The notes: generated from the letters alone by a model not told the origin. A stretch of DNA of 31,891 bases from Gemmatimonadales bacterium (GCA_034666205.1 JAXDMF010000210.1:1-31891); one strand, 5' to 3'; shown: positions 1-9,651, counted from the first letter of the stretch. Made by a program: numbers and translations.

Positions 1-157
1 GGGAAGGACGGGAAGGACGGGAAGGTGGTGCACTTCGTGGGAATTGGGTGGCTACATAGACGTGGCTGCTCTGTAGGTCACTTGCGAAAGGGCCACCCCC
101 TATGCCAGCGCGGTGACCCTTCCCGTCCTTCCCGTCCTTCCCGCCCTTCCCGTCCTT
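1..157. repeat. Inverted pair of 9-mer tandem arrays (GGGAAGGAC)n / (GTCCTTCCC)n enclosing about 90 nt
   Basis: 1-25 reads gggaaggac gggaaggac gggaagg (cut by the window edge). 118-157 is about 4 copies of the reverse complement and abuts the kamA stop at 158-160. Confidence 0.85.
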
Positions 158-1276
158 CTAAGCCGTCCGCCGCTTCGCCCCGCGCTTCCGCGGCTTCTTC
201 AGCTCGAGGACGCCCGCTTCCTCCCGTGGCTGCCGGTACACATAGCGCTCTCCCCGGAAGTTCTTCAGAACCACTTCGTCTTCCGTCATGCTCTCTACGT
301 AATCCGGCAGGATTGGGACCTTCCCGCCGCCACCAGGGGCATCGATCACGAAATACGGCACGGCCAGCCCGCTGGTCCAGCCCCGCAGCGCTCTCATAAT
401 CTCGATCCCGGTCTGCACCGACGTGCGGAAGTGCTCCGCGCCGGCCACCTGGTCTGCCATGTAGATGTAGTAGGGGCGGACCCGGGCCATGAGCAGCCGC
501 TGCATGAGCTCCATCATGACCGCCGGTGTGTCGTTCACGCCCTTGAGAAGCACCGTCTGGCAGCCCAGCGGGATCCCCGCGTCGGCCAGCATACCCAGGG
601 CGGCGACGGCCGCCGGCGTCAGCTCATCAGGATGGTTGAAGTGGGTATTGATGAAGAGCGGGTGAAACCGCTTCAGCATGGCGCACAGCTCGGGCGTGAC
701 CCGCTCCGGCAGATGGCATGGGATCCGGCTGCCGATCCGGATGATCTGAAGGTGGGGAATGGCCCGAAGCCGGATCAGGATGGCCTCGAGGCGTCGGTCG
801 TTCAGCAGGAGGGGATCGCCGCCGGACAGGATGACGTCCCGAATCTCGGTGTGTTCCTCGAGATAGCGAAAGGCGCTCTCGAACTGGGACATCGGGATCT
901 TCTCGGGATCACCGACCTTGCGCCGACGGGTGCAGAAGCGGCAGTACGTGGCGCAGACGGGCGACACCAGAAACAAGGCCCGGTCGGGATACCGGTGGGT
1001 GATATTGGGCACCGGGCTGTCGGCGTCCTCGTTCAGCGAGTCCACGATCCCGTCCACCACATCCAGCTCCTCGACCGACGGCACATATTGGCGCCAGATC
1101 GGATCGTCCGGAGACTTGATGAGATCGACCATGGCCGGCGAGATCCGGAACTCAAAGTTCTCGGCCGCCTGCCGGAGCCGCTCCAGCTCTGGAAAGTTCT
1201 CGGGACCGAACTTGGCGGCCAGCGCGTCGAGCGACGCGATCGAGTTCTTTCTCAGGACCTCTTGCCAAGTTTCCAT
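158..1276 (-). CDS. kamA: KamA-family radical SAM enzyme, lysine 2,3-aminomutase type (372 aa)
   Basis: CxxxCxxC (CATYCRFC), HRYPDR, SGGDPL, RIGSR, HFNHP, YYIYMAD and the PLP-lysine motif DAPGGGGK. GGAGG Shine-Dalgarno 7 nt before ATG. Confidence 0.92.
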   Translation of the reverse strand: METWQEVLRKNSIASLDALAAKFGPENFPELERLRQAAENFEFRISPAMVDLIKSPDDPIWRQYVPSVEELDVVDGIVDSLNEDADSPVPNITHRYPDRALFLVSPVCATYCRFCTRRRKVGDPEKIPMSQFESAFRYLEEHTEIRDVILSGGDPLLLNDRRLEAILIRLRAIPHLQIIRIGSRIPCHLPERVTPELCAMLKRFHPLFINTHFNHPDELTPAAVAALGMLADAGIPLGCQTVLLKGVNDTPAVMMELMQRLLMARVRPYYIYMADQVAGAEHFRTSVQTGIEIMRALRGWTSGLAVPYFVIDAPGGGGKVPILPDYVESMTEDEVVLKNFRGERYVYRQPREEAGVLELKKPRKRGAKRRTA

Positions 1277-1295
1277 TTATCCGCCTCCGGTTACA

Positions 1296-1365
1296 GGTAA
1301 GAGGTAAGAGGTAAGAAGTGAGAGGGCAGAACGTCCCTCTTACCTCTCACCCCTCACCTCTCACC
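1296..1365. repeat. Inverted heptamer tandem repeat (GGT[A/G]AGA) forming a 31-bp hairpin between GNAT and kamA
   Basis: Arms 1296-1326 and 1335-1365 with an 8-nt loop. One arm encodes the last GNAT codons and its stop. Confidence 0.9.
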
Positions 1366-1847
1366 TTCTTTACAAACACCACCTGATCATCCCCCGGGGC
1401 ATAGAAGTCGGGGATGGTGGCTGCCGCCCGGTAACCCCGGGCCTGGTAGAAGCCGCGGGTGGCGGCGTAATCGGGCCGCCCCGTGGTCTCGATGATGACC
1501 AGCCGGGCGAGCCCGGCGAGGCGGCGCTCCATTTCGCTGAGAAGAGCGGAGCCGATCCCGCTACCCTGGAGCGCAGGCTCCACCGCCATCCAATAGAGAT
1601 CGTATGTGCCGAGGGTGCAGGGGGTGGGGCCCCAACAGATCCAGCCGACCAGGCGGCCGTCGACGTCGGCTCCCAAGGCGGTGTATGACTGGCTGCCGCC
1701 TTCCCGGACCGCCTCATCGAAGACCTCGAGCGCGACCGGGATCTCGTCGTCACGAAACAAGCCCACCGCACGAGTAATGTCCTCGATGCGGCCGCGATCG
1801 GCTGCGCTGAGGGGGCGGAGACGAGAGGAGACCAGGGTGCCGCTCAC
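1347..1847 (-). CDS. GNAT-family N-acetyltransferase (about 166 aa)
   Basis: YDLYWMAV followed by acetyl-CoA motif A (QGSGIGSALL), then FYQARGY. The GTG start at 1847 overlaps the upstream TGA (GTGA). The ORF-track extension to 2195 lies inside the upstream gene and is spurious. Confidence 0.88.
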   Translation of the reverse strand: MSGTLVSSRLRPLSAADRGRIEDITRAVGLFRDDEIPVALEVFDEAVREGGSQSYTALGADVDGRLVGWICWGPTPCTLGTYDLYWMAVEPALQGSGIGSALLSEMERRLAGLARLVIIETTGRPDYAATRGFYQARGYRAAATIPDFYAPGDDQVVFVKKVRGEG

Positions 1848-2854
1848 GCGGCTGACACCCCGCTGACGAGGGCGACGGCGGCCTGATGGCGCTGCGAGCG
1901 CATGAGAGCCTCGTCCACGACCTGCATGACCAGATCGTCGTAGCTCCAGCCAAACGCCCGGCCCATGCGGGCGAGGCCGGCGTTGCTCGAGAGATCGGGA
2001 GTGGGGTTGACCTCGAGGACGTAGGGCTGGCCGTCCTCGCTCAGCCGCAAATCGACGCGGCCGTAGCCTTCGCCGTCGGACATGTGCTCCCAGGCTTTTC
2101 GGGCTATCTGGCCGATGCCCTGGAGCACCTCGGGCGACAGGTCCGCTGGGCAGACCGGCACCGTTCCCTCGTCTTCGGGGCTGCCGGGAATCCACTTGGC
2201 GGCATAGCTCACGATCGGCCAGGTTCCCTGGGGAAGGTCCTCGAACCGGATCTCGGCAATGGGCAACATCCGCTTGCCGACGAATCCGACGTTGAACTCC
2301 CTGCCCGCCACGTATTCCTGCACCAGCACTTCATCGAACTGCTCGAGCATCTGCGTGACCCGGCGCTTGAGGGCCCGCTTGCTGGTGACGACCGCGCCGT
2401 TGTCGATTCCGACGCTGGCGTCTTCAGCCGCGGGCTTCACGATGGCCGGGAGGGGGAAGTCGGCGGGAGCCTTGTTGGCCTGGGCCAGGGTGAAGGCCGG
2501 AACCGGAACCCCGGCGGATGCAAGCAGCGTGTTGGCCACGTGCTTCCGATGGCAAACGGCGGTGGGCCAGGTCCGGCAGCCGGTGAACGGCACGCCGGTG
2601 AGCTCGAGGGTGCCCACGACGAAGTCTTCGAAGCGGGCGTAGCCGTTGATCCCCTCGCACAGGTTGAAGACGAGGTCGGCCCGGCGAACCCGGGAGAGCC
2701 AGCGGAAATCGCCGTACCGGACGGGCAGGAGCTCGACCTCGTGCCCCCGGCGCCGCAACACGTCTCGGACTTCGTGGACGTTGGCGACTACCGCAGCCAC
2801 GTCCTGGGGACTCCACTCTTCGCTGCCCGCATCGAAGAGAATGGCGACTTTCAT
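1844..2854 (-). CDS. D-Ala-D-Ala-ligase-like ATP-grasp enzyme B (336 aa), non-canonical
   Basis: VFNLCEG, IVKP, QEYVAGREFNV, YGRVDLR, LEVNPTP. Lacks the Ddl N-terminal GGxSxE motif. Confidence 0.88.
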   Translation of the reverse strand: MKVAILFDAGSEEWSPQDVAAVVANVHEVRDVLRRRGHEVELLPVRYGDFRWLSRVRRADLVFNLCEGINGYARFEDFVVGTLELTGVPFTGCRTWPTAVCHRKHVANTLLASAGVPVPAFTLAQANKAPADFPLPAIVKPAAEDASVGIDNGAVVTSKRALKRRVTQMLEQFDEVLVQEYVAGREFNVGFVGKRMLPIAEIRFEDLPQGTWPIVSYAAKWIPGSPEDEGTVPVCPADLSPEVLQGIGQIARKAWEHMSDGEGYGRVDLRLSEDGQPYVLEVNPTPDLSSNAGLARMGRAFGWSYDDLVMQVVDEALMRSQRHQAAVALVSGVSAA

Positions 2855-3958
2855 TCAGGCTACCTCCGCCAGGAGTGAACGGCCGCTGATCCGCCGCCAG
2901 GCCACGTCGGCGACGGTGCGGATGAGTTCGTCGTAGCTCATCCCGGCCGCAGCCGCGGCCTTGGGAAAACACGAATGGTCTCGCGGGTCGGGCAAAATGC
3001 CCGGCAGCGGATTGAGCTCGACGACCATCGGACGACCGGCGGCGTCACAGCGGACGTCGACGCGGCACCAGTCGCGGCATTCCAAGGTGTGATACGCTGC
3101 CAGCGCGACCTCCCGTATTTCCGCCGCGAGCCGCTTCGAGATGTTGGCTGGGCACTCGTAGATCTCGAGCGGATTGCTGGGCGTGTCCCAGATCCACTTG
3201 GCCTCATACCCGTAAATCGGTGGCGCACCCTTCGGCAGCATATCAAATCGCATGCCGATAATCGGCAGGCAACGCGCCTCGTCACCGTTGCCGAGGATGG
3301 CGACGGTGAACTCCTGGCCCGGCAGATAGGTCTCGATCAGCACCGGCTCCGAGTACGTCGCGAGAAGATGAGAGACCTGTTCCACCAGTTGCGAGCGGTT
3401 CCGGCAGAAACTCCGGGTGGTGATCCCTTTCCCCGAGCCCTCGAACGCAGGCTTCACAAAGAGGGGAAATGGGAGCTTGACCCGCCGGGCATCTGCTGCT
3501 GAGTGCGCCACGGTGAAGGGAGCCGTCGGCACTCCGCGATAGGAGAGGATCTCCTTGGCCCGGCCCTTGTGGAGTGCGAGGCCGAGCGTGAGCGGATCGG
3601 AGGCGTGGTAGGGCACGCCGAGGAACTCGCAGATGGCGGGGACGTGCGCTTCCCGGCTTGCCCCGTAGAGTCCCTCGGCGATGTTGAAGACGAAATCCGG
3701 CCGGAGCAGCGCTAGCCGGGCCGGAAACCTGCTGTCGGCCTCGAGGCGATGGACCTGTCCCACGGTGCTGAGCGCCCGCTCCACCGCATTGATGGTTGCG
3801 GGCTCATCCCACTCAGCGTACAGGTCGGGTTGATGGAGGTCAGGGCGGAAACCCCGACTCGGAGGTTCGTCGGATGGAGGGGATTCGGAGATCGCCCCGG
3901 CTGGGTTAGCCGGCGCCGCGGGTTTGAGATTAAAGGCGAGTCCGATCCGAACTGCCAA
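2855..3958 (-). CDS. D-Ala-D-Ala-ligase-like ATP-grasp enzyme A (367 aa), non-canonical
   Basis: FVFNIAEG, LFVKP, ETYLPGQEFTV, CRVDVR, ELNPLPG. TTG start with GAGG 6 nt upstream. The stop directly abuts the next ATG. Confidence 0.88.
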   Translation of the reverse strand: MAVRIGLAFNLKPAAPANPAGAISESPPSDEPPSRGFRPDLHQPDLYAEWDEPATINAVERALSTVGQVHRLEADSRFPARLALLRPDFVFNIAEGLYGASREAHVPAICEFLGVPYHASDPLTLGLALHKGRAKEILSYRGVPTAPFTVAHSAADARRVKLPFPLFVKPAFEGSGKGITTRSFCRNRSQLVEQVSHLLATYSEPVLIETYLPGQEFTVAILGNGDEARCLPIIGMRFDMLPKGAPPIYGYEAKWIWDTPSNPLEIYECPANISKRLAAEIREVALAAYHTLECRDWCRVDVRCDAAGRPMVVELNPLPGILPDPRDHSCFPKAAAAAGMSYDELIRTVADVAWRRISGRSLLAEVA

Positions 3959-3971
3959 AGGCTTCCTCTAC

Positions 3972-3999
3972 AAAAAAGGCCGTCCGCGAGAGACGAGCC
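3972..3999 (-). terminator. Intrinsic terminator in the 5' leader of the ATP-grasp/GNAT/kamA operon
   Basis: Minus strand GGC(U)CGUCU-CUCGC-GGACGGCC followed by U6, ending 13 nt before the TTG start. Confidence 0.65.
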
Positions 4000-4026
4000 A
4001 GGACGAGTTCACGTATCGACACAACT

Positions 4027-4055
4027 AAGGTAAGGAAAATCTTTTGATGGCACAA
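4027..4055 (-). promoter_or_regulatory. sigma70-like promoter TTGTGC-N17-TACCTT
   Basis: -35 at 4055-4050 and -10 at 4032-4027, with an exact 17-nt spacer in an AT-rich island. Predicted TSS about 4020. Confidence 0.55.
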
Positions 4056-4093
4056 TAGTTTTTGGAAAGAAAGTCGGAATGAGTTTTGGAGGA

Positions 4094-4208
4094 GTCGCTA
4101 GTCGTTAGTCGCTAGTTCCTAGTCTTTGGTCGTTAGTCTCTGGTTTTCAGCTCTAGTGGGTGGCTGCCTCCGAGCTAAGGACTAGAGACTAACGGCTAGC
4201 GACTAGAC
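4094..4208. repeat. Inverted degenerate heptamer arrays (GTCGCTA-like / TAGCGAC-like) at the thyX 3' end
   Basis: 7-nt-periodic TAG/CTA units at 4094-4156 and 4175-4208. The thyX stop (4203-4205) lies inside the array. Confidence 0.85.
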
Positions 4209-4955
4209 CTTATGAAATTCCACCCGACCCGCTTCTCCCCCCTCGGGCGACTGATAGATCTCGAAGTCAGCGAAGAGCGCCGGCGCCTCCTGCTGGAGGA
4301 CACGGAGGCAGGCCACCGCCATCCGACGGATCTCCAGCTCGGCACCCTCGCCCAGCCTGAGCTCCAGCATGGTTCGCCAGGCACGGACGTTCGCGCTGGC
4401 CACGATCTTCACCTCGGTCGCGTTGGGGAGGACGCTCCGGGCCGCCTCGCGGGCCAGCTTCCGCCGGTGAACCTTGTCCTCGACCCACTCGTAGCGGGAC
4501 ATCAGGCGCTCGACCGCCTCGACATAGGCAGTTTGAGCAGCCCGGACCTGGTTGGTCCACTCCGCTTCGAGCGTCGGGTCCCCCATGATCGCGGGCGGCA
4601 TCACGAAGGCGGCGTGGGACTCGTCCACGTAGCGCTGGGAGAGCTGGGAAAAGCCCCAGCCCGCCCGGTGCCGCACCAGCTCATGGCTGCAGGAGCGCGA
4701 GATCCCCTCGATGAGCATCACATAGGTGGAGTGCTCGAAGACCGAGCCGTGCCCCTGCCGCAGAATGTTCCGCAGATACTCCGGGGTGCTCCGGCCCGCC
4801 GGATTGTGCTGGCTCATATAGCAGAGCCGTCCGGCAAATTCGGCCAGCCGCTCCCCGTCGGTCGATTCGCCCTTCCACTGGACTGGGAGATGCGCGGGCT
4901 CGAGAAACTGGGGCCGGGCGATAAGGGTAATGCGAGGTTCGCGGAGGATTTCCAT
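4203..4955 (-). CDS. thyX: FAD-dependent thymidylate synthase (about 250 aa)
   Basis: GHGSVFEH, SRSCSHELVRHR and the ThyX motif RHRAGWGFSQLSQRY, plus AARSVLP and NVRAW. Start placed at ATG 4955 because the 4997 extension only translates heptamer repeats. Confidence 0.93.
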   Translation of the reverse strand: MEILREPRITLIARPQFLEPAHLPVQWKGESTDGERLAEFAGRLCYMSQHNPAGRSTPEYLRNILRQGHGSVFEHSTYVMLIEGISRSCSHELVRHRAGWGFSQLSQRYVDESHAAFVMPPAIMGDPTLEAEWTNQVRAAQTAYVEAVERLMSRYEWVEDKVHRRKLAREAARSVLPNATEVKIVASANVRAWRTMLELRLGEGAELEIRRMAVACLRVLQQEAPALFADFEIYQSPEGGEAGRVEFHKV

Positions 4956-4958
4956 GGA

Positions 4959-5076
4959 GTCGCTAGTCGCTGGTCGCTGGTCGGTAGTTACGCTCATGAG
5001 ACTCTAGTCTAGGGTCCGGATTCCAAAGTGGAAGACCACGCGTCTGTTGGGTAACTCGCGACTAGCGACTAGCGAC
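4959..5076. repeat. Inverted heptamer arrays (GTCGCT[A/G]) / (GCGACTA) between the FAD oxidoreductase and thyX
   Basis: gtcgcta gtcgctg gtcgctg gtcggta at 4959-4986 and gcgacta gcgacta gcgac at 5058-5076, the latter containing the upstream stop. Confidence 0.85.
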
Positions 5077-6717
5077 TTCACCAGCCAATTCCAACCGGGA
5101 CCTCGCATAGCCCCCGGTCCGCTCGATCTCGCGCAACGAACGCTGGACGTCGTCGGGCAGCGGCACTGCAGTCGCCCCAACCTTGAGGTGGCTGATCGGC
5201 GGATCGCCGGCCTGAGGCCCCTCGGGGCACGGAAGGATAATGCCCGGGTTGAATATTCCCAGAGGATCGAAGCTGCGCTTGACCCGCCGGAACAGCTCGA
5301 CGATCTCCGGCCCGTAGACTCGGGTCAGTGCCTCCACCCGAAGGCGGCCGTCCCCGTGCTCGCCGGACAAGGTGCCGCCGAGACGAACGACGGTCTCGGT
5401 GACGGCATCCATCACCCGGACGATCGCGGACTCCCAGCCTGGACGACTCACGTCGGGAAGCAGGTTGACGTGGATATGACCGTCGCCCGCATGCCCGAAC
5501 ATGACAGCCGGGATGGCGGCCTCGGCCACCACCCGCCGCACCGCCCGGATGTACTCGCCCATGCGAGCAATCGGCACGCACGCGTCCTCAATCACCTGGA
5601 GCGAGCGCTGCCCCTCGGGTAACCGGGCCAGGATGGGGCTGGCAGCGTGGCGAATGGCCCAGAGCCGGTCCGCAGCTTCGGCCGAGACTCCGGTCTCGAC
5701 CGACAGGGCGAACGGGCGGACGGCAGAGCGAGCCTGCTCGACGGCCTGGGTCAGGGATTCGTCGTCGCCGCGCTCCAGCTCCACCAGCAGCACCGCGTCG
5801 GCATCAGAGCCAACGAGGCCTGCCTCGGAGAGTGCGCCTGATCCGACGAGATCGAGGAAGCTGCGGTCCAGCAGCTCGACCGCCGAAGGGTCGGCGGAGC
5901 TGAGGGCCGCCACGGCCGGGCCGAGCTCATCGAGCGAACGGAGCGACACGCGAAGGCCGGCCCGGCAGGGCGGCTTGGGGTCGAGCCGCCACTCGATCTC
6001 GGTCACAATAGCGAGGGTGCCCTCGCTGCCGATGAGGAGATCCAGCGCATCGCCAGAGGCGAGGTATGCGTCGAGGGCGTATCCGGAGGAATTTTTCCGG
6101 GTGTGGGGGAAGCGTTCCGCGATCAGCGGGGCCGCCGAGGCGATCGCCGGCGCCGCGTCCCGGTCGAACCGGGTCAGCGCCGCGGACTCCGGCTGGGCCT
6201 TCCCGCGCCTGAGAGCTACGACGTCAGCCTCGGCGGTTACGATGGTGAGGGCCTCGACCCAGGAACGCACGCTGCCGTACCGAACCGATCTCGCTCCGGC
6301 CGCGTTGGTCGAGACCATTCCGCCCAACGACGCCCACTGCCCGCTGGACGGGTCGGGCGGAAGGCGGAGCCCATAGGGAGCCGCGGCGGTGTTGAGCTCC
6401 GCGAGGGTCACGCCCGCACTGGTGGTCGCGCGCCGGGCGGTGGCATCAACGTCGAGCCGGCGACCTGCCATGTGGCCGAGATCCACCATCACGCCTTCAC
6501 CGACGTTGCCGCCGCCCATGGCGCTGCCTGCTCCGCGCGGCACCAATGAGGCGCGGTGCTCGGCCGCCCAGCGAATCAGATGCTGGAGATCGTCGATGTC
6601 GGCGGGAAGGCAGACGGCCTGGGGAAGGATGCGATAGATGCCAGCGGCCTCTGCATAGGCGGCCCGAGCCCTCGAGTCGGTTCGGTAAATGCCCCGGACG
6701 GCTGGAGGAGGCAGCAT
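5062..6717 (-). CDS. FAD-binding oxidoreductase, GlcD / D-lactate dehydrogenase-like (FAD-linked oxidase family)
   Basis: PRGAGSAMGG, PPDPSSG-ASLGGMVSTNAAG, GSEGTL, GHAGDGHIH, LSGEHGDG, FDPLGIFNPG. ATG at 6717 (TTG at 6723 possible). Confidence 0.88.
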   Translation of the reverse strand: MLPPPAVRGIYRTDSRARAAYAEAAGIYRILPQAVCLPADIDDLQHLIRWAAEHRASLVPRGAGSAMGGGNVGEGVMVDLGHMAGRRLDVDATARRATTSAGVTLAELNTAAAPYGLRLPPDPSSGQWASLGGMVSTNAAGARSVRYGSVRSWVEALTIVTAEADVVALRRGKAQPESAALTRFDRDAAPAIASAAPLIAERFPHTRKNSSGYALDAYLASGDALDLLIGSEGTLAIVTEIEWRLDPKPPCRAGLRVSLRSLDELGPAVAALSSADPSAVELLDRSFLDLVGSGALSEAGLVGSDADAVLLVELERGDDESLTQAVEQARSAVRPFALSVETGVSAEAADRLWAIRHAASPILARLPEGQRSLQVIEDACVPIARMGEYIRAVRRVVAEAAIPAVMFGHAGDGHIHVNLLPDVSRPGWESAIVRVMDAVTETVVRLGGTLSGEHGDGRLRVEALTRVYGPEIVELFRRVKRSFDPLGIFNPGIILPCPEGPQAGDPPISHLKVGATAVPLPDDVQRSLREIERTGGYARSRLELAGEVASR

Positions 6718-6745
6718 CGCCAAAAGCTAACTATCTTTTCCCCCT

Positions 6746-7540
6746 ATGGCTGAGGGTCCTCGAGCTCAACTGATTCATATCGACGTCGATCGCCGGCTCG
6801 GGCACGAATGGGACGAGTGGGACGGACGTCCGCTGCCGAATCAGGGGAACTACGATTCTCCCCCCGCGCTCTTCTTTGCCTGGTCAGCCATCGCCCTCGC
6901 CCTCGGTCTCGGTCTGGTCGCGCTGGTCCTTTATCTGCTCACACCCCGCCTCGGAACAGTTCACGCCAGCCTGCCTGCGATACTCTGGAGCGCCCTGCTG
7001 CTTGGAGGATCTCTGCTCTGGGTATGGTGGGGAGTGTTGCTGCTCTCACATGAGATCGAGCGGCCGCTTCTTCCCGAATGGCTGGCGGAGCGAGGGCCGT
7101 TCCTGGGCCTCATGCGGCTGACGTCCCGGGTCGCGGATCGGTTTGGCCGTCGGGACTGGGTGGAGAATGCGGCGGTGAAGGTCTACAACAGTCTTGCCGT
7201 GATGCGCGGCCGCAAGGTCGGTCAGGGGGAACTGCTGCTGTTGATCCCCCGCTGCCTCTCCAAGGTGACGCTCGACGGCGTGCTCGGGATCGCGGGGAAG
7301 TACGGAGTGCCCGTCTTCGTAGCCACCCGGGGACAACTGGCGCGCCGGGTGATCAGGGAGCGCCGGCCCCGGGCCGTGGTGGCCGTTGCCTGCGAGCGAG
7401 ACATGGTGAGCGGCTTGCACGATGTTGCCGGCAAGATCCCGGTGCTGGGCCTGACCATGACCCTGCCGGCCGGGCCCTGCAAGGACGCCTCGCTGGATCT
7501 GGGTCAGCTGGAGCGGTGGGTACAGGCTTACGTCGTGTGA
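6746..7540 (+). CDS. DUF116-domain membrane protein (264 aa)
   Basis: Two N-terminal hydrophobic helices, then IPRCL, VAVACERDM and GPCKD Cys motifs typical of DUF116. Confidence 0.75.
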   Translation: MAEGPRAQLIHIDVDRRLGHEWDEWDGRPLPNQGNYDSPPALFFAWSAIALALGLGLVALVLYLLTPRLGTVHASLPAILWSALLLGGSLLWVWWGVLLLSHEIERPLLPEWLAERGPFLGLMRLTSRVADRFGRRDWVENAAVKVYNSLAVMRGRKVGQGELLLLIPRCLSKVTLDGVLGIAGKYGVPVFVATRGQLARRVIRERRPRAVVAVACERDMVSGLHDVAGKIPVLGLTMTLPAGPCKDASLDLGQLERWVQAYVV

Positions 7541-8087: not shown

Positions 8088-8672
8088 TCAGTCCTGGTGC
8101 GGCGGGGTGCCGGGCGGATGGGAGTGTGGCGCTGAGCCTGGGGGATCGACGTGGGCCGGCGAGGTGCTTGAATCCGGTTCGGCTCCATGGTGATGGTGCC
8201 CTTCGCTCCGCTCGTGCAGCTCTTCTTGGAGGACCGGGCTGGGGATTCCCGCGGCATGCTCAAACACCAACTTGCCCCCATAGAACCCGGTTGCGCACAG
8301 CATTCCAACTCCCGCCAGCGACGCGATGACGGTTGCTGTCCGCTCCGGGCTCCCCATCCGCCTCTCCCGGAACAGCCGCCACAGGGCGAGGACCCCGAAT
8401 ATCCCCAGGCTGATCAGCGCGAACTGCTCGTGCGTCCCCATGACCTGGTGCACCGCCTCGCCATGGTCGATGTGCTCTTCGGCCTGAAGCCCCGAGACCA
8501 CGGCCACGATCGCTCCCAACGCGCCGACCAGCAGGAGCGAGAACCCCACCTGCCGGAGCACCACCCGCCGGGTGGCGAGTGCCAGGAGGTCGAAGAAGAC
8601 CGCGGTCACGAGCAAGGCGATCGGGAAGTCGTTCAGGAGCGCGTGCAGGCGGGGCCAGTCATAGCCGAGCAT
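8088..8672 (-). CDS. DUF2231-family membrane protein with His-rich C-terminal tail (194 aa)
   Basis: LHALLNDFPIAL start, four hydrophobic helices, HEQFA, GGKLVFEH and a GHHHH tail. GGAG Shine-Dalgarno. Confidence 0.75.
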   Translation of the reverse strand: MLGYDWPRLHALLNDFPIALLVTAVFFDLLALATRRVVLRQVGFSLLLVGALGAIVAVVSGLQAEEHIDHGEAVHQVMGTHEQFALISLGIFGVLALWRLFRERRMGSPERTATVIASLAGVGMLCATGFYGGKLVFEHAAGIPSPVLQEELHERSEGHHHHGAEPDSSTSPAHVDPPGSAPHSHPPGTPPHQD

Positions 8673-8688
8673 CTTGATCTCCAGAAGC

Positions 8689-8763
8689 GTGAGCGGTGAG
8701 CGGTAAGAGGTGAGCGGGAGGTGATGGGCGGGGCCCGCTCACTGCTCACCGCTTACCGCTTAC
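8689..8763. repeat. Inverted heptamer tandem repeat (GGT[A/G]AGC) forming a 30-bp hairpin between hbd and the DUF2231 gene
   Basis: Arms 8689-8718 and 8734-8763 with a 15-nt loop. The hbd C-terminus VSGKR-stop is encoded by the arm. Confidence 0.9.
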
Positions 8764-9651
8764 TTGCTGGACGACGTCAACCGGCACTGGTGGATCGACC
8801 GAGTAATCATAAAACCCCTTACCGCTTTTCTTGCCATGTAGCCCCTCCCGGGTCATCCGGCGAAGCAGCGGTGGCGCCGCGTACCGGTTGTCACCGTACG
8901 CCTCGAACATGATGTCGGCGATCCGCACGACCGTATCGAGCCCGATGAAATCCAACAGCGCCAGCGGACCCATTGGATGGCCGCATCCCAGCTGCATGGC
9001 ACGGTCGAGATCGGCGGTCGAGGCCACCCCGCGCTCCAGCGCACGGGTCGAGTCGAGCAGATAGGGAACCAGCAGCAGATTGACGATGAACCCCGGATTG
9101 TCCACTGTCGCCACGGGCTCCTTGCCCAGCGCCCGTGCGAAGTCATAGGCTCCCTGGAAAGTCTCCGTGCTCGTCGTGGCGGTCCGGATCACTTCCACCA
9201 GAGGCATCAGTGGGACCGGATTGAAGAAGTGCAGCCCCACGAACCGGTCGGCCCGGGTCGTAGCCGCCGCCATGGCCGCAATGGTCAGGCTGGAGGTGTT
9301 CGACGCGAAAATCGTGGCGGGACCGCACAGACGATCGAGCTCCCGCCAGAGACCATTCTTGAGCTCCAGGTCTTCCGTCACCGCCTCTATGATGATGTCG
9401 CAATCCCGGAGGGCCGAGAGGTCGGTACCAAAGGAGAGCCTGGCCAGCGCCGTGTCCCGGGCCGCCGGCGTCAGTTTGCCCTTCTCCACCAGCCGGCTCA
9501 GGGATTTCCCAATCGAAGCCCGGCCTTTCTCCAGCAGCGGCTGGGCCACGTCGCGGACGACAGTAAGGAATCCGGCCGCGGCCGCGGTTTGGGCGATACC
9601 GCTACCCATGAGGCCGCATCCGAGTACCCCCACCTTCCGGATTTCGCTCAT
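8746..9651 (-). CDS. hbd: 3-hydroxybutyryl-CoA (3-hydroxyacyl-CoA) dehydrogenase (301 aa)
   Basis: GCGLMGSG Rossmann motif, IEAVTE, ASNTSS, GLHFFNP, PGFIVN, HPMGPL, GKKSGKGFYDY. Confidence 0.92.
   Translation of the reverse strand: MSEIRKVGVLGCGLMGSGIAQTAAAAGFLTVVRDVAQPLLEKGRASIGKSLSRLVEKGKLTPAARDTALARLSFGTDLSALRDCDIIIEAVTEDLELKNGLWRELDRLCGPATIFASNTSSLTIAAMAAATTRADRFVGLHFFNPVPLMPLVEVIRTATTSTETFQGAYDFARALGKEPVATVDNPGFIVNLLLVPYLLDSTRALERGVASTADLDRAMQLGCGHPMGPLALLDFIGLDTVVRIADIMFEAYGDNRYAAPPLLRRMTREGLHGKKSGKGFYDYSVDPPVPVDVVQQVSGKR

What the first reader, a model, noticed from the sequence alone, without database searches (positions are those of the whole stretch)
158..3958. Orphan operon: two Ddl-like ATP-grasp ligases + GNAT + lysine 2,3-aminomutase, a candidate beta-lysine peptide pathway
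Seen: four co-oriented, tightly coupled genes (abutting stop/start, GTGA overlap, strong SD for kamA) with their own promoter. Established: in Clostridium subterminale lysine 2,3-aminomutase, Asp293 and Asp330 bind the substrate side-chain amine and Lys337 binds PLP. The equivalent YYIYMAD and VIDAPGGGGK motifs here keep both Asp residues, whereas glutamate 2,3-aminomutases substitute them, so lysine is the likely substrate. Aminomutase plus GNAT alone (AblA/AblB) makes the osmolyte N-epsilon-acetyl-beta-lysine. Inference: two added amide-forming ligases suggest a beta-lysine-containing, N-acetylated di- or tripeptide (osmolyte, cell-wall modifier or small antimicrobial with GNAT tailoring or self-protection). 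I know of no characterised product for this arrangement.
Basis: partly seen in the sequence, partly recalled or inferred. Interest (0 to 1): 0.82.

Follow-up and report, generated by a model that had tools for sequence, protein, structure and literature searches.

The report
Conserved beta-lysine two-ligase operon
Four tightly packed genes in a soil Gemmatimonadales genome (a lysine-to-beta-lysine enzyme, two ligases derived from the cell-wall D-Ala-D-Ala ligase, and a small acetyltransferase) form a real operon that recurs in many bacteria and archaea, and it probably builds a still unidentified acetylated beta-lysine amide compound.

Summary
Four minus-strand genes form one unit: AG1 2855-3958, AG2 1844-2854, GNAT 1347-1847 and KamA 158-1276. 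Stop and start abut, there is a GTGA overlap, and kamA has a GGAGG ribosome-binding site.

- **Conservation:** The order AG1-AG2-GNAT-KamA holds in 36 of 49 Gemmatimonadota loci and 27 of 34 metagenome loci from other clades. Named relatives include Acidobacteria, Deltaproteobacteria, Kryptonia, Nitrososphaerales and Altiarchaeales.
- **Co-occurrence:** Among 151 Gemmatimonadota genomes, the orthologous KamA occurs only where AG1 occurs (63 versus 0).
- **Fusions:** Natural AG-AG and KamA-AG1 fusions exist. A predicted AG1-AG2 dimer scores 0.71 against a best control of 0.01.
- **Enzymes:** KamA keeps the lysine-binding Asp293 and Asp330 and the PLP-binding Lys337. Both ligases keep the Ddl catalytic residues but differ from Ddl, and from each other, at substrate positions.
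- **Excluded roles:** A true ddl lies elsewhere in the relatives' genomes. No AblB or EpmA was found.

A sister variant replaces KamA with arginine decarboxylase and agmatinase, which points to amides built on a basic amine.

The product is unknown, and I found no paper on the cassette. The nearest mechanistic precedent is phevamine A, made by an amine-tailoring enzyme plus two ATP-grasp ligases. This scan has already noted the cassette on about 300 other windows.

New here are a promoter-like motif and a hairpin plus U-run leader upstream of the operon, conserved across two clades.

The parts
4025..4057 (-). Conserved promoter-like motif TATTGTGC-N17-TACCTTAG (-35-like TTGTGC at 4055-4050, -10-like TACCTT at 4032-4027)
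   Evidence: There is one copy in the window and one per genome in three same-genus genomes, always upstream of AG1. The motif is conserved in about 30 related loci. The generic sigma-70 scan did not call it.
3972..3999 (-). Leader hairpin (3999-3978) followed by U6 (3977-3972), directly before the AG1 ribosome-binding site; a candidate attenuator
   Evidence: The scan called it terminator-like. The hairpin plus U-run is kept in two clades with different stem sequences. No Rfam family matched. RNA-library contigs run across it. Its function has not been tested.
2855..3958 (-). AG1: Ddl-derived ATP-grasp ligase, 367 aa, TTG start with AGAGGA at 3969-3964
   Evidence: It matches PF07478 at 124 bits, but reaches only 171 bits on Ddl NCBIfam model NF002378 against a cut-off of 243. 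It keeps K97, K144, E180, K215, R255, D257, E270 and N272 (DdlB numbering), plus E15, S150 and S281. It has H63E, Y216W and L282C in about 90 orthologues.
1844..2854 (-). AG2: second Ddl-derived ATP-grasp ligase, 336 aa, 35% identical to AG1
   Evidence: The catalytic residues are kept. It has G149D, S150A, G276D, S281A, L282G, Y216W and H63E. The predicted complex with AG1 scores 0.71 against a best control of 0.01. AG1-AG2 fusions are common.
1347..1847 (-). Small GNAT acyltransferase, 166 aa, GTG start in a GTGA overlap with the AG2 stop
   Evidence: It matches PF13508 and PF00583. Its best NCBIfam hit is RimI, below the cut-off, and it does not match AblB. PDB 2R7H 'putative D-alanine N-acetyltransferase' matches at E 4e-31. 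The gene is missing in 4 of 49 Gemmatimonadota loci.
1296..1365 (-). Long intergenic hairpin between the GNAT and kamA, made of heptamer-like repeats
   Evidence: The sequence is shown. Only spurious miRNA-model hits were found in Rfam. RNA-library depth peaks here, as expected for a repeat shared with other loci. Not followed up.
158..1276 (-). KamA-family radical-SAM, PLP-dependent lysine 2,3-aminomutase, 372 aa, GGAGG at 1288-1284
   Evidence: It scores 283 bits on TIGR00238 (cut-off 199). On AblA TIGR03820 it scores 436 bits, below the cut-off of 525. It matches 2A5H at E 1e-111 with C125, C129, C132, R134, D293, D330 and K337 kept. The Zn ligand C268 and the C-terminal 45 or so residues are absent.
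1..151 (-). Inverted-repeat array downstream of kamA, probably the end of the operon, cut by the contig end
   Evidence: The sequence is shown. In relatives the next gene is usually convergent.

Best explanation
The four genes are one transcription unit encoding a self-contained small-molecule pathway.

**Proposed steps**
1. KamA turns L-lysine into beta-lysine (3,6-diaminohexanoate). This is inferred from the conserved substrate residues.
2. Two different Ddl-derived ATP-grasp ligases form two successive amide bonds through acyl-phosphate intermediates, with beta-lysine as one building block. They probably work as a heterodimer. AG1 is the ligase most directly coupled to KamA.
   - AG1 keeps the Ddl residues that hold an amino group and a carboxylate, so it looks like an amino-acid-to-amino-acid ligase.
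   - AG2 has lost the carboxylate-binding Ser281 and gained two Asp residues, so it may accept a cationic amine.
3. The small GNAT then caps a free amine with an acetyl group. This is a tailoring step that some lineages do without.

**Product and role**
The product is an unidentified N-acetylated di- or tripeptide-like amide of beta-lysine. The cassette is inherited vertically, carries no export, immunity or regulator gene, and occurs in both bacteria and archaea. The product is therefore more likely a cytoplasmic solute or polyamine-like cation (stress or desiccation protectant) than an antibiotic or a wall component.

**What is shown and what is inferred**
- Shown: gene structure, co-conservation, fusions, and the residue patterns.
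- Inferred: the substrates, the order of steps, the product and the role.
For: **Gene order and co-occurrence**
- The order AG1-AG2-GNAT-KamA is kept in 15 of 16 loci spread over Gemmatimonadales, in 36 of 49 species-representative loci, and in 27 of 34 metagenome loci of other clades.
- All four genes occur together, reshuffled, on a contig whose AG1 clusters with a Nitrososphaerales archaeon protein. An Altiarchaeales-like contig has AG1-AG2-KamA.
- In 151 Gemmatimonadota genomes the orthologous KamA is found in 63, all of them AG1-positive, and in 0 of 78 AG1-negative genomes.
- Of 10 AG1-positive genomes without the orthologous KamA, 8 carry a divergent KamA paralogue. In some it lies directly after the GNAT.

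**Fusions and predicted complex**
- Among 123 full-length cluster representatives, 34 are double-ligase fusions and 4 are KamA-ligase fusions, the latter in both orders.
- The predicted AG1-AG2 complex scores 0.71 against a best of 3 controls of 0.01. That mark was reached by 55 of 80 solved complexes and 3 of 110 mismatched pairs.

**Residues**
- KamA keeps D293, D330, K337, R134 and the Fe-S cysteines.
- Both ligases keep all the catalytic and ATP/Mg residues. They differ consistently from Ddl, and from each other, at substrate positions in about 90 orthologues each.

**Expression and precedent**
- Soil RNA-library contigs 92-99% identical cover all four genes and bridge the AG1/AG2 and AG2/GNAT junctions.
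- In the phevamine A pathway, an amine-tailoring enzyme plus two ATP-grasp ligases assemble a dipeptidyl-polyamine (PMC6187163).
Against: - No product, substrate or enzyme activity has been measured for any member.
- The assignment of DdlB residue roles comes from my memory of the DdlB mutagenesis and structure literature. It was not tested here.
- The complex prediction may only echo the known Ddl homodimer, and it cannot tell a heterodimer from two homodimers (caveat).
- A sister variant lacks KamA and sits behind arginine decarboxylase and agmatinase. Yet its AG1 and AG2 show no residue column that separates them from the KamA-linked ones. Either the ligases do not read the amine that the neighbouring gene makes, or those genomes hold a KamA elsewhere. 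I could not check which.
- Six of the 49 Gemmatimonadota loci have no KamA gene next to the cassette, and 4 have no GNAT.
- The RNA libraries may contain DNA (caveat).
- The habitats seen are non-saline (soil, permafrost, sediment), so a classical salt-osmolyte role is not obvious.
Confidence: 0.55

Rival explanations
1. This is a variant of the AblA/AblB osmolyte pathway. [quoted passage not shown]
For: The best NCBIfam match of KamA is the AblA model TIGR03820 (436 bits). A GNAT lies next to it. N-epsilon-acetyl-beta-lysine is known in bacteria as well as methanogens (PMC3543383; PMC9337991).
Against: - KamA scores below the AblA cut-off of 525 bits.
- The GNAT is 166 aa and does not match AblB TIGR03827. 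That family was not found in five genomes.
- The GNAT is missing in some lineages that keep the ligases and KamA.
- KamA is fused to AG1, not to the GNAT.
- The ligases are the most constant part of the cassette.
Confidence: 0.12
2. This is a secreted bioactive compound of the phevamine or dapdiamide type: a cationic pseudopeptide antibiotic or effector, with the GNAT serving for tailoring or self-protection.
For: Two ATP-grasp ligases plus an amine-forming enzyme is exactly the logic of the phevamine A pathway. Specificity positions 216 and 280-282 of AG1 vary between subfamilies, as expected for diversifying natural products.
Against: - The cassette holds no exporter, immunity or regulator gene.
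- It sits in conserved synteny with thyX and an FAD oxidase across an order.
- It is present in most genomes of a family (57 of 71) and in archaea. That pattern suggests core physiology rather than accessory chemistry.
Confidence: 0.12
3. This is protein or translation-factor modification: an ATP-grasp route that attaches beta-lysine to a protein, in analogy with EpmA/EpmB on EF-P or with RimK and RimI on ribosomal proteins.
For: - KamA-family enzymes supply beta-lysine for EF-P.
- No EpmA is present, so the beta-lysine has no known user.
- The best family match of the GNAT is RimI.
- In the sister variant a deoxyhypusine-synthase homologue lies upstream.
Against: - Ddl-type ATP-grasp enzymes are known for small substrates. 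AG1 keeps the Ddl residues for a free amino group and a free carboxylate.
- The cassette occurs in archaea, which have no EF-P.
- It is absent from about half of the phylum.
- EpmB TIGR03821 scores only 234 bits against a cut-off of 369.
Confidence: 0.06
4. This is a cyanophycin-like reserve polymer or beta-peptide built from beta-lysine by the two ligase domains.
For: One double-ligase fusion is followed by a Peptidase_S58 gene, the DmpA/BapA family that includes beta-aminopeptidases. Double-ligase fusions recall the two ligase domains of cyanophycin synthetase.
Against: The S58 neighbour was seen once and not in the 80 metagenome loci. The Ddl fold closes over small substrates. No primer or granule protein is evident.
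Confidence: 0.05
5. This is cell-wall chemistry: the ligases make D-Ala-D-Ala or an alternative peptidoglycan stem dipeptide.
For: The only named families they match are the Ddl and Van ligases.
Against: - All the scores are far below the Ddl cut-offs.
- Y216, H63 and L282 are replaced in both ligases, and S150 and S281 are lost in AG2.
- A separate ddl above the cut-off exists in four relatives, and a fragment of it lies at a contig end of this genome.
- The cassette occurs in archaea without murein.
Confidence: 0.03

Closest known systems
AblA/AblB pathway to N-epsilon-acetyl-beta-lysine (methanogens, some bacteria; Pfluger et al. 2003, as cited in PMC3543383 and PMC9337991)
   Same: A KamA-family lysine 2,3-aminomutase sits next to a GNAT acetyltransferase, and beta-lysine is the likely intermediate.
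   Different: - KamA scores below the AblA cut-off.
- The GNAT is a different, much smaller family; AblB was not found.
- Two ATP-grasp ligases are the constant core and are fused to KamA in some lineages.
- The GNAT is optional.
Phevamine A pathway, hsv operon of Pseudomonas syringae (HsvA amidinotransferase, HsvB and HsvC ATP-grasp ligases; PMC6187163)
   Same: The logic is the same: one enzyme prepares a basic amine, and two ATP-grasp ligases add two acyl or aminoacyl units in turn.
   Different: - The amine-forming enzyme is different (radical-SAM aminomutase here, arginine decarboxylase in the sister variant).
- The ligases here are of the Ddl branch. Their relation to HsvB and HsvC was not tested.
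- A GNAT is added.
- The cassette is vertically conserved in many phyla and is not a virulence operon.
D-alanine--D-alanine ligase (E. coli DdlB, PDB 2DLN/1IOV) and the Van ligases
   Same: The fold and all the catalytic and ATP/Mg residues are the same (K97, K144, K215, R255, D257, E270, N272). The predicted dimer resembles the Ddl dimer.
   Different: - Substrate positions are changed: H63E and Y216W in both, L282C in AG1, and G149D, S150A, G276D, S281A and L282G in AG2.
- Scores fall below all the family cut-offs.
- A separate true ddl is present in relatives.
Clostridium subterminale lysine 2,3-aminomutase (PDB 2A5H)
   Same: The match is E 1e-111 over residues 10-350. The Fe-S cysteines, R134, D293, D330 and K337 are kept.
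   Different: It is shorter: it lacks the Zn ligand C268 and the C-terminal 45 or so residues. In that respect it resembles the short KamA forms.
EpmA/EpmB beta-lysylation of EF-P
   Same: A KamA-family enzyme makes beta-lysine for an ATP-dependent amide-forming step.
   Different: No EpmA is present (only LysRS-type hits below the cut-off). EpmB scores below its cut-off. The ligases are ATP-grasp enzymes, not tRNA-synthetase paralogues.

Membership tests
KamA family radical-SAM aminomutase (TIGR00238) | Score over the family cut-off | tested here: met
   283.4 bits against a cut-off of 199.2.
Lysine 2,3-aminomutase (substrate lysine) | CxxxCxxC cluster, PLP lysine K337, carboxylate-binding R134, and the side-chain amine binders D293 and D330 (roles from the 2A5H literature, recalled from memory) | tested here: met
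   All are aligned and identical in the phmmer alignment to 2A5H. Enzyme activity is not testable here.
AblA (TIGR03820) of the N-epsilon-acetyl-beta-lysine pathway | Score over the equivalog cut-off | tested here: not met
   436.5 bits against a cut-off of 525.4.
AblA/AblB pathway | AblB-type beta-lysine acetyltransferase (TIGR03827) present | tested here: not met
   The GNAT has no TIGR03827 hit. There was no match in G000 or four relatives.
AblA/AblB pathway | [quoted passage not shown] | not testable with these tools
   This needs cultures and NMR or LC-MS.
Glutamate 2,3-aminomutase (TIGR04368) | Score over the cut-off; D293 and D330 replaced (recalled from memory, Ruzicka and Frey 2007) | tested here: not met
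   382 bits against a cut-off of 650. Both Asp residues are kept.
D-alanine--D-alanine ligase (TIGR01205 / NF002378) | Score over the family cut-off | tested here: not met
   AG1 scores 140 and 171 bits, and AG2 scores 129 and 142 bits, against cut-offs of 246 and 243.
D-alanine--D-alanine ligase | Substrate-site residues H63, S150, Y216, S281 and L282 of DdlB | tested here: not met
   AG1 has E63, W216 and C282. AG2 has E63, A150, W216, A281 and G282. This holds in about 90 orthologues each.
D-alanine--D-alanine ligase | It is the genome's only ddl, or lies in the cell-division/wall cluster | tested here: not met
   A separate ddl above the cut-off is present in G121, G127, G045 and G016. A fragment lies at G000:C186.
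ATP-grasp ligase (catalytically competent) | ATP/Mg and acyl-phosphate residues K97, K144, K215, R255, D257, E270 and N272 | tested here: met
   These are invariant or nearly so in the AG1 and AG2 orthologues.
EpmA/EpmB EF-P beta-lysylation | EpmB over its cut-off and EpmA present | tested here: not met
   EpmB scores 233.8 bits against 369.3. The TIGR00462 hits are all below the cut-off and lie in LysRS-sized frames.
Phevamine-type two-ATP-grasp amine-dipeptide pathway | An amine-preparing enzyme plus two ATP-grasp ligases in one operon | tested here: met
   Gene content; precedent. Homology to HsvB and HsvC was not tested, so this is a likeness in how it works, not family membership.

The most novel reading that the evidence does not exclude
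The cassette makes a widespread, still unknown class of cytoplasmic metabolites. These would be N-acetylated aminoacyl or dipeptidyl amides built on a basic four-carbon diamine skeleton: beta-lysine here, and agmatine or putrescine in the sister variant. They would be assembled by an obligate heterodimer of two Ddl-derived ligases. They would serve many mostly uncultured bacteria and archaea as a stress solute or polyamine analogue. In Gemmatimonadales, production would be controlled by a new leader attenuator.
Probability: 0.3. Interest if true: 0.8.

Novelty: new variant of a known kind. Interest (0 to 1): 0.62.

Why it matters
A gene set conserved from soil Gemmatimonadota to Acidobacteria, Deltaproteobacteria, Kryptonia, Nitrososphaerales and Altiarchaeales, with no known product, implies a common microbial metabolite that has escaped chemistry and annotation. 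Its ligases are routinely mislabelled as D-Ala-D-Ala ligase.

Identifying the product would do four things:
- correct thousands of annotations;
- add a new use of beta-lysine besides the acetyl-beta-lysine osmolyte, EF-P modification and antibiotics;
- show how the Ddl scaffold was recruited twice for new substrates;
- possibly explain stress or desiccation tolerance of abundant soil lineages.

The conserved hairpin plus U-run leader offers a handle for finding the signal that controls the operon.

Tried and rejected
- **New low-molecular-weight thiol** (two ligases as in GshA/GshB, a GNAT as in mycothiol synthase). GshB was not found. BshC is over its cut-off in this genome and three of four relatives, so bacillithiol already fills that role. 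The idea is weakened, not excluded.
- **EF-P beta-lysylation.** No EpmA was found.
- **Acetyl-beta-lysine pathway.** No AblB was found.
- **Housekeeping Ddl.** A separate ddl is present.
- **Riboswitch or known RNA in the leader and intergenic hairpins.** There were only spurious miRNA-model hits.
- **Generic sigma-70 scan.** No site was found.
- **RNAalifold on 32 leaders.** The consensus was weak (6 pairs, 1 compensatory), because indels misalign the stems. The hairpins are evident only sequence by sequence.
- **Residue columns separating KamA-linked from arginine-decarboxylase-linked ligases.** None was found.
- **A conserved fifth gene downstream of kamA.** None was found; the neighbour is mostly convergent.
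- **Cross-phylum view from genome contigs.** The 80 loci kept were all Gemmatimonadota. That view came instead from cluster representatives, named cluster members and metagenome contigs.
- **Literature searches.** Searches for the cassette, for 2R7H, and for the residue roles of glutamate 2,3-aminomutase found nothing usable.

Full report
**1. What is in the window**

The window is the first 31.9 kb of a contig of a Gemmatimonadales metagenome-assembled genome, 65% G+C and 83% complete. Four ORFs lie head to tail on the minus strand:
- AG1, 2855-3958, 367 aa, TTG start.
- AG2, 1844-2854, 336 aa.
- A GNAT. Its real start is the GTG at 1847, which overlaps the AG2 stop as GTGA (1347-1847, 166 aa).
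- KamA, 158-1276, 372 aa.

The AG1 stop abuts the AG2 start. A 70-nt spacer with a long hairpin precedes kamA, and a GGAGG lies 7 nt before its ATG.

Pfam gives Dala_Dala_lig_C for both ligases, Acetyltransf_1/7 for the GNAT, and Radical_SAM plus LAM_C for KamA. Upstream on the same strand lie thyX and an FAD-linked oxidase. The 245-nt gap between thyX and AG1 holds an inverted-repeat array, a promoter-like motif and a leader hairpin.

**2. The enzymes**

*KamA.* It scores over the KamA subfamily cut-off (283 against 199 bits). It is below the cut-offs of AblA (436 against 525), glutamate 2,3-aminomutase, arginine 2,3-aminomutase and EpmB. The alignment to the Clostridium subterminale enzyme (2A5H, E 1e-111) shows the three Fe-S cysteines, R134, D293, D330 and K337 all conserved. 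The Zn ligand C268 and the last 45 or so residues are missing. That D293 and D330 hold the lysine side-chain amine, and that glutamate aminomutases replace them, is established knowledge recalled from memory (Lepore et al. 2005; Ruzicka and Frey 2007). I could not retrieve a paper to cite.

*The two ligases.* They are 35% identical to each other. They match Ddl models at 129-171 bits, far below cut-offs of 243-246. I mapped about 90 orthologues of each onto E. coli DdlB.
- Both keep K97, K144, K215, R255, D257, E270 and N272.
- Both have H63E and Y216W.
- AG1 keeps E15, S150 and S281, and has L282C.
- AG2 has G149D, S150A, G276D, S281A and L282G.

From memory of the DdlB literature, E15 and S150 belong to the first (acyl-donor) site, and S281 and L282 hold the carboxylate of the second D-Ala. 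On that basis AG1 still looks like a ligase joining two amino acids. AG2 looks as if it accepts a nucleophile without that carboxylate and with more positive charge. This is inference.

*The GNAT.* It is not AblB. Its best family match is RimI, below the cut-off. It has a solved relative of unknown function, 2R7H, at E 4e-31.

**3. Not the known systems**
- Four near-complete relatives each have a separate ddl above the cut-off. This genome has the first 126 positions of one at a contig end.
- No EpmA was found; the hits are LysRS-sized and below the cut-off.
- No AblB was found.
- The genome has a single KamA-family gene.
- It also has a third Ddl-like paralogue elsewhere that shares E63 and W216.

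**4. Co-conservation**

Within the phylum, 73 of 151 sampled genomes have AG1. They are concentrated in two families of the order (57 of 71 and 14 of 31).

The orthologous KamA (66% identity or more) is found in 63 genomes. All of these are AG1-positive, and none of the 78 AG1-negative genomes has it. Related genomes are not independent, so this is a pattern, not a statistic.

Of the 10 AG1-positive genomes without the orthologous KamA:
- Eight carry a divergent 460-550-aa KamA paralogue. It lies either directly after the GNAT or 12-18 kb downstream. It keeps the Asp equivalents.
- Two have none detected. In one of them AG1 lies 1.6 kb from a contig end, so kamA may be cut off.

Among species-representative loci with enough flank, the arrangements are:

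| Arrangement | Loci (of 49) |
|---|---|
| AG1-AG2-GNAT-KamA | 36 |
| AG1-AG2-GNAT-divergent KamA | 3 |
| No adjacent KamA | 6 |
| No GNAT | 4 |

The gene after kamA is mostly convergent, so the operon ends there.

**5. Outside the phylum**

A search of 1.84 billion cluster representatives gave 1018 proteins at E 1e-30 or better. Of the 123 full-length proteins among the best 150, 34 are double-ligase fusions and 4 are KamA-ligase fusions in both orders.

Contexts of individual relatives:
- A KamA-AG1 fusion followed by AG2 and a GNAT.
- A Nitrososphaerales-type contig with all four genes reshuffled.
- An Altiarchaeales-type contig with AG1-AG2-KamA.
- An Acidobacteria contig with AG1-AG2-GNAT at its end.
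- A contig with KamA-AG1-AG2, two more ATP-grasp genes and an Orn/DAP/Arg decarboxylase.

Source names of AG1 relatives at 41-55% identity include Bathyarchaeia, Altiarchaeales, Deltaproteobacteria, Kryptonia, Bacteroidetes and Acidobacteria. Atlas clusters add Ignavibacteriota, Chloroflexota and Bacillota, as leads only.

In 34 metagenome loci of these other clades with enough flank, 27 have the same order as the window.

**6. A sister variant**

Nine metagenome loci and one further contig form one clade. There the order is (deoxyhypusine-synthase homologue)-(agmatinase)-pyruvoyl arginine decarboxylase-(unknown)-AG1-AG2-(GNAT-methyltransferase-GNAT), with no KamA in reach.

No alignment column separates the AG1 or AG2 of this variant from the KamA-linked ones, and all active-site positions are the same. 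Beta-lysine contains the same four-carbon diamine skeleton as putrescine, so one pocket could in principle take either. It is equally possible that these genomes have a KamA elsewhere, and that the polyamine genes are only neighbours in one clade. I could not reach their whole genomes. Earlier notes of this scan describe the same variant; I found it independently before reading them.

**7. Do the ligases work together?**

The complex prediction for AG1 with AG2 gave a score of 0.71, with the best of 3 controls at 0.01. The mark was reached by 55 of 80 solved complexes and 3 of 110 mismatched pairs. Because Ddl is a known homodimer, this pass may reflect the family likeness. It cannot exclude two homodimers. 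The many natural AG1-AG2 fusions are independent support for a joint unit.

**8. Regulation**

About 30 related loci share TATTGTG-N-TTTCTTAYYTTAG upstream of AG1 (window 4057-4025, with TTGTGC-N17-TACCTT inside it). The full motif occurs once per genome in the three same-genus genomes that have it.

Some 25-30 nt further on comes a hairpin followed by U6, then the ribosome-binding site (window 3999-3972). A second clade, with AG1 about 60% identical, has a different stem sequence but the same hairpin-U-run-GUAGGAGG layout. That argues for selection on the structure. The automatic consensus fold was weak because of misalignment, and no Rfam family matches.

A promoter followed at once by a terminator-like element suggests attenuation. 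This is a hypothesis only.

**9. Expression**

The stretch is present in soil, permafrost and sediment runs. In four RNA libraries, contigs 92-99% identical cover all four genes and bridge the AG1/AG2 and AG2/GNAT junctions. Two contigs run across the leader hairpin, and nothing was laid on 4073-4200. Contigs carry no strand, and RNA libraries can hold DNA, so this is weak support for transcription of the unit in relatives.

**10. Reading**

The best-supported explanation is a dedicated pathway. KamA makes beta-lysine, two distinct Ddl-derived ligases form two amide bonds, and the GNAT caps an amine. The result would be an unidentified small acetylated beta-lysine amide.

Vertical conservation, the lack of export or immunity genes, and the presence in archaea all favour a cytoplasmic solute or polyamine-like compound over an antibiotic. 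Cell-wall and EF-P roles are disfavoured by direct tests.

The nearest precedent for the logic is phevamine A. The nearest for the chemistry of the first step is AblA/AblB. I found no paper describing the cassette.

This scan has noted the same cassette on about 300 other windows, with the same conclusion.
- the strict KamA/AG1 co-occurrence in one phylum;
- the paralogue replacement of KamA;
- the residue map over about 90 orthologues;
- the absence of residue differences between the KamA-linked and decarboxylase-linked variants;
- the conserved promoter and leader.

Noticed in passing
window 3972-4057 (minus strand): A promoter-like motif and a hairpin plus U6 leader ahead of AG1 are conserved in two Gemmatimonadales clades, with different stem sequences. 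This is a candidate attenuator with no Rfam match.
   Followed up: partly
window 1-151, 1296-1365, 4094-4208: Long inverted-repeat arrays built of heptamer-like units sit at gene junctions. RNA-library depth peaks on them, as expected for repeats shared with other loci.
   Followed up: no
G000:C136:3840-4820 (locus L112): A third Ddl-like paralogue scores below the Ddl cut-offs and shares E63 and W216 with AG1 and AG2. It lies between a sugar-1-phosphate nucleotidyltransferase, an unknown 538-aa ORF and an MFS transporter. It may belong to another uncharacterised ligase pathway.
   Followed up: partly
L034:10706-12094, L111:1714-3222: A divergent 460-550-aa KamA-family paralogue, about 32% identical, has a CPQYCGHC cluster and an insertion after the PLP-lysine region. 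It replaces the orthologous KamA in some Gemmatimonadales, either directly after the GNAT or 12-18 kb away.
   Followed up: partly
L119:6001-9432: A 724-aa double-ligase fusion is followed directly by a Peptidase_S58 (DmpA/BapA family) gene, with no KamA or GNAT nearby. It was seen once.
   Followed up: no
L122:1169-8416: This is an extended variant: KamA-AG1-AG2, then two further ATP-grasp genes and an Orn/DAP/Arg decarboxylase, with no GNAT.
   Followed up: no
L118:6001-8088: An AG1-KamA fusion stands alone. The KamA part has Gln at the Asp293 position, and the ligase part has T216, Y280 and L282. It may act on a substrate other than lysine.
   Followed up: partly
L028 and L064 (about 8508-9529): In these two loci, which hold the same contig, kamA is matched in three pieces in different frames. 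It is either a decaying gene or a product of long-read assembly errors.
   Followed up: no
window 4203-7540: The genes thyX, an FAD-linked oxidase (GlcD/YdiJ-like) and a divergent DUF116 membrane protein keep their synteny with the cassette across much of the order. This is probably inherited gene order rather than shared function.
   Followed up: partly
G000:C124:1068-2459: BshC is over its cut-off here and in three relatives, and no GshB was found. These Gemmatimonadales look like bacillithiol producers rather than glutathione producers.
   Followed up: partly
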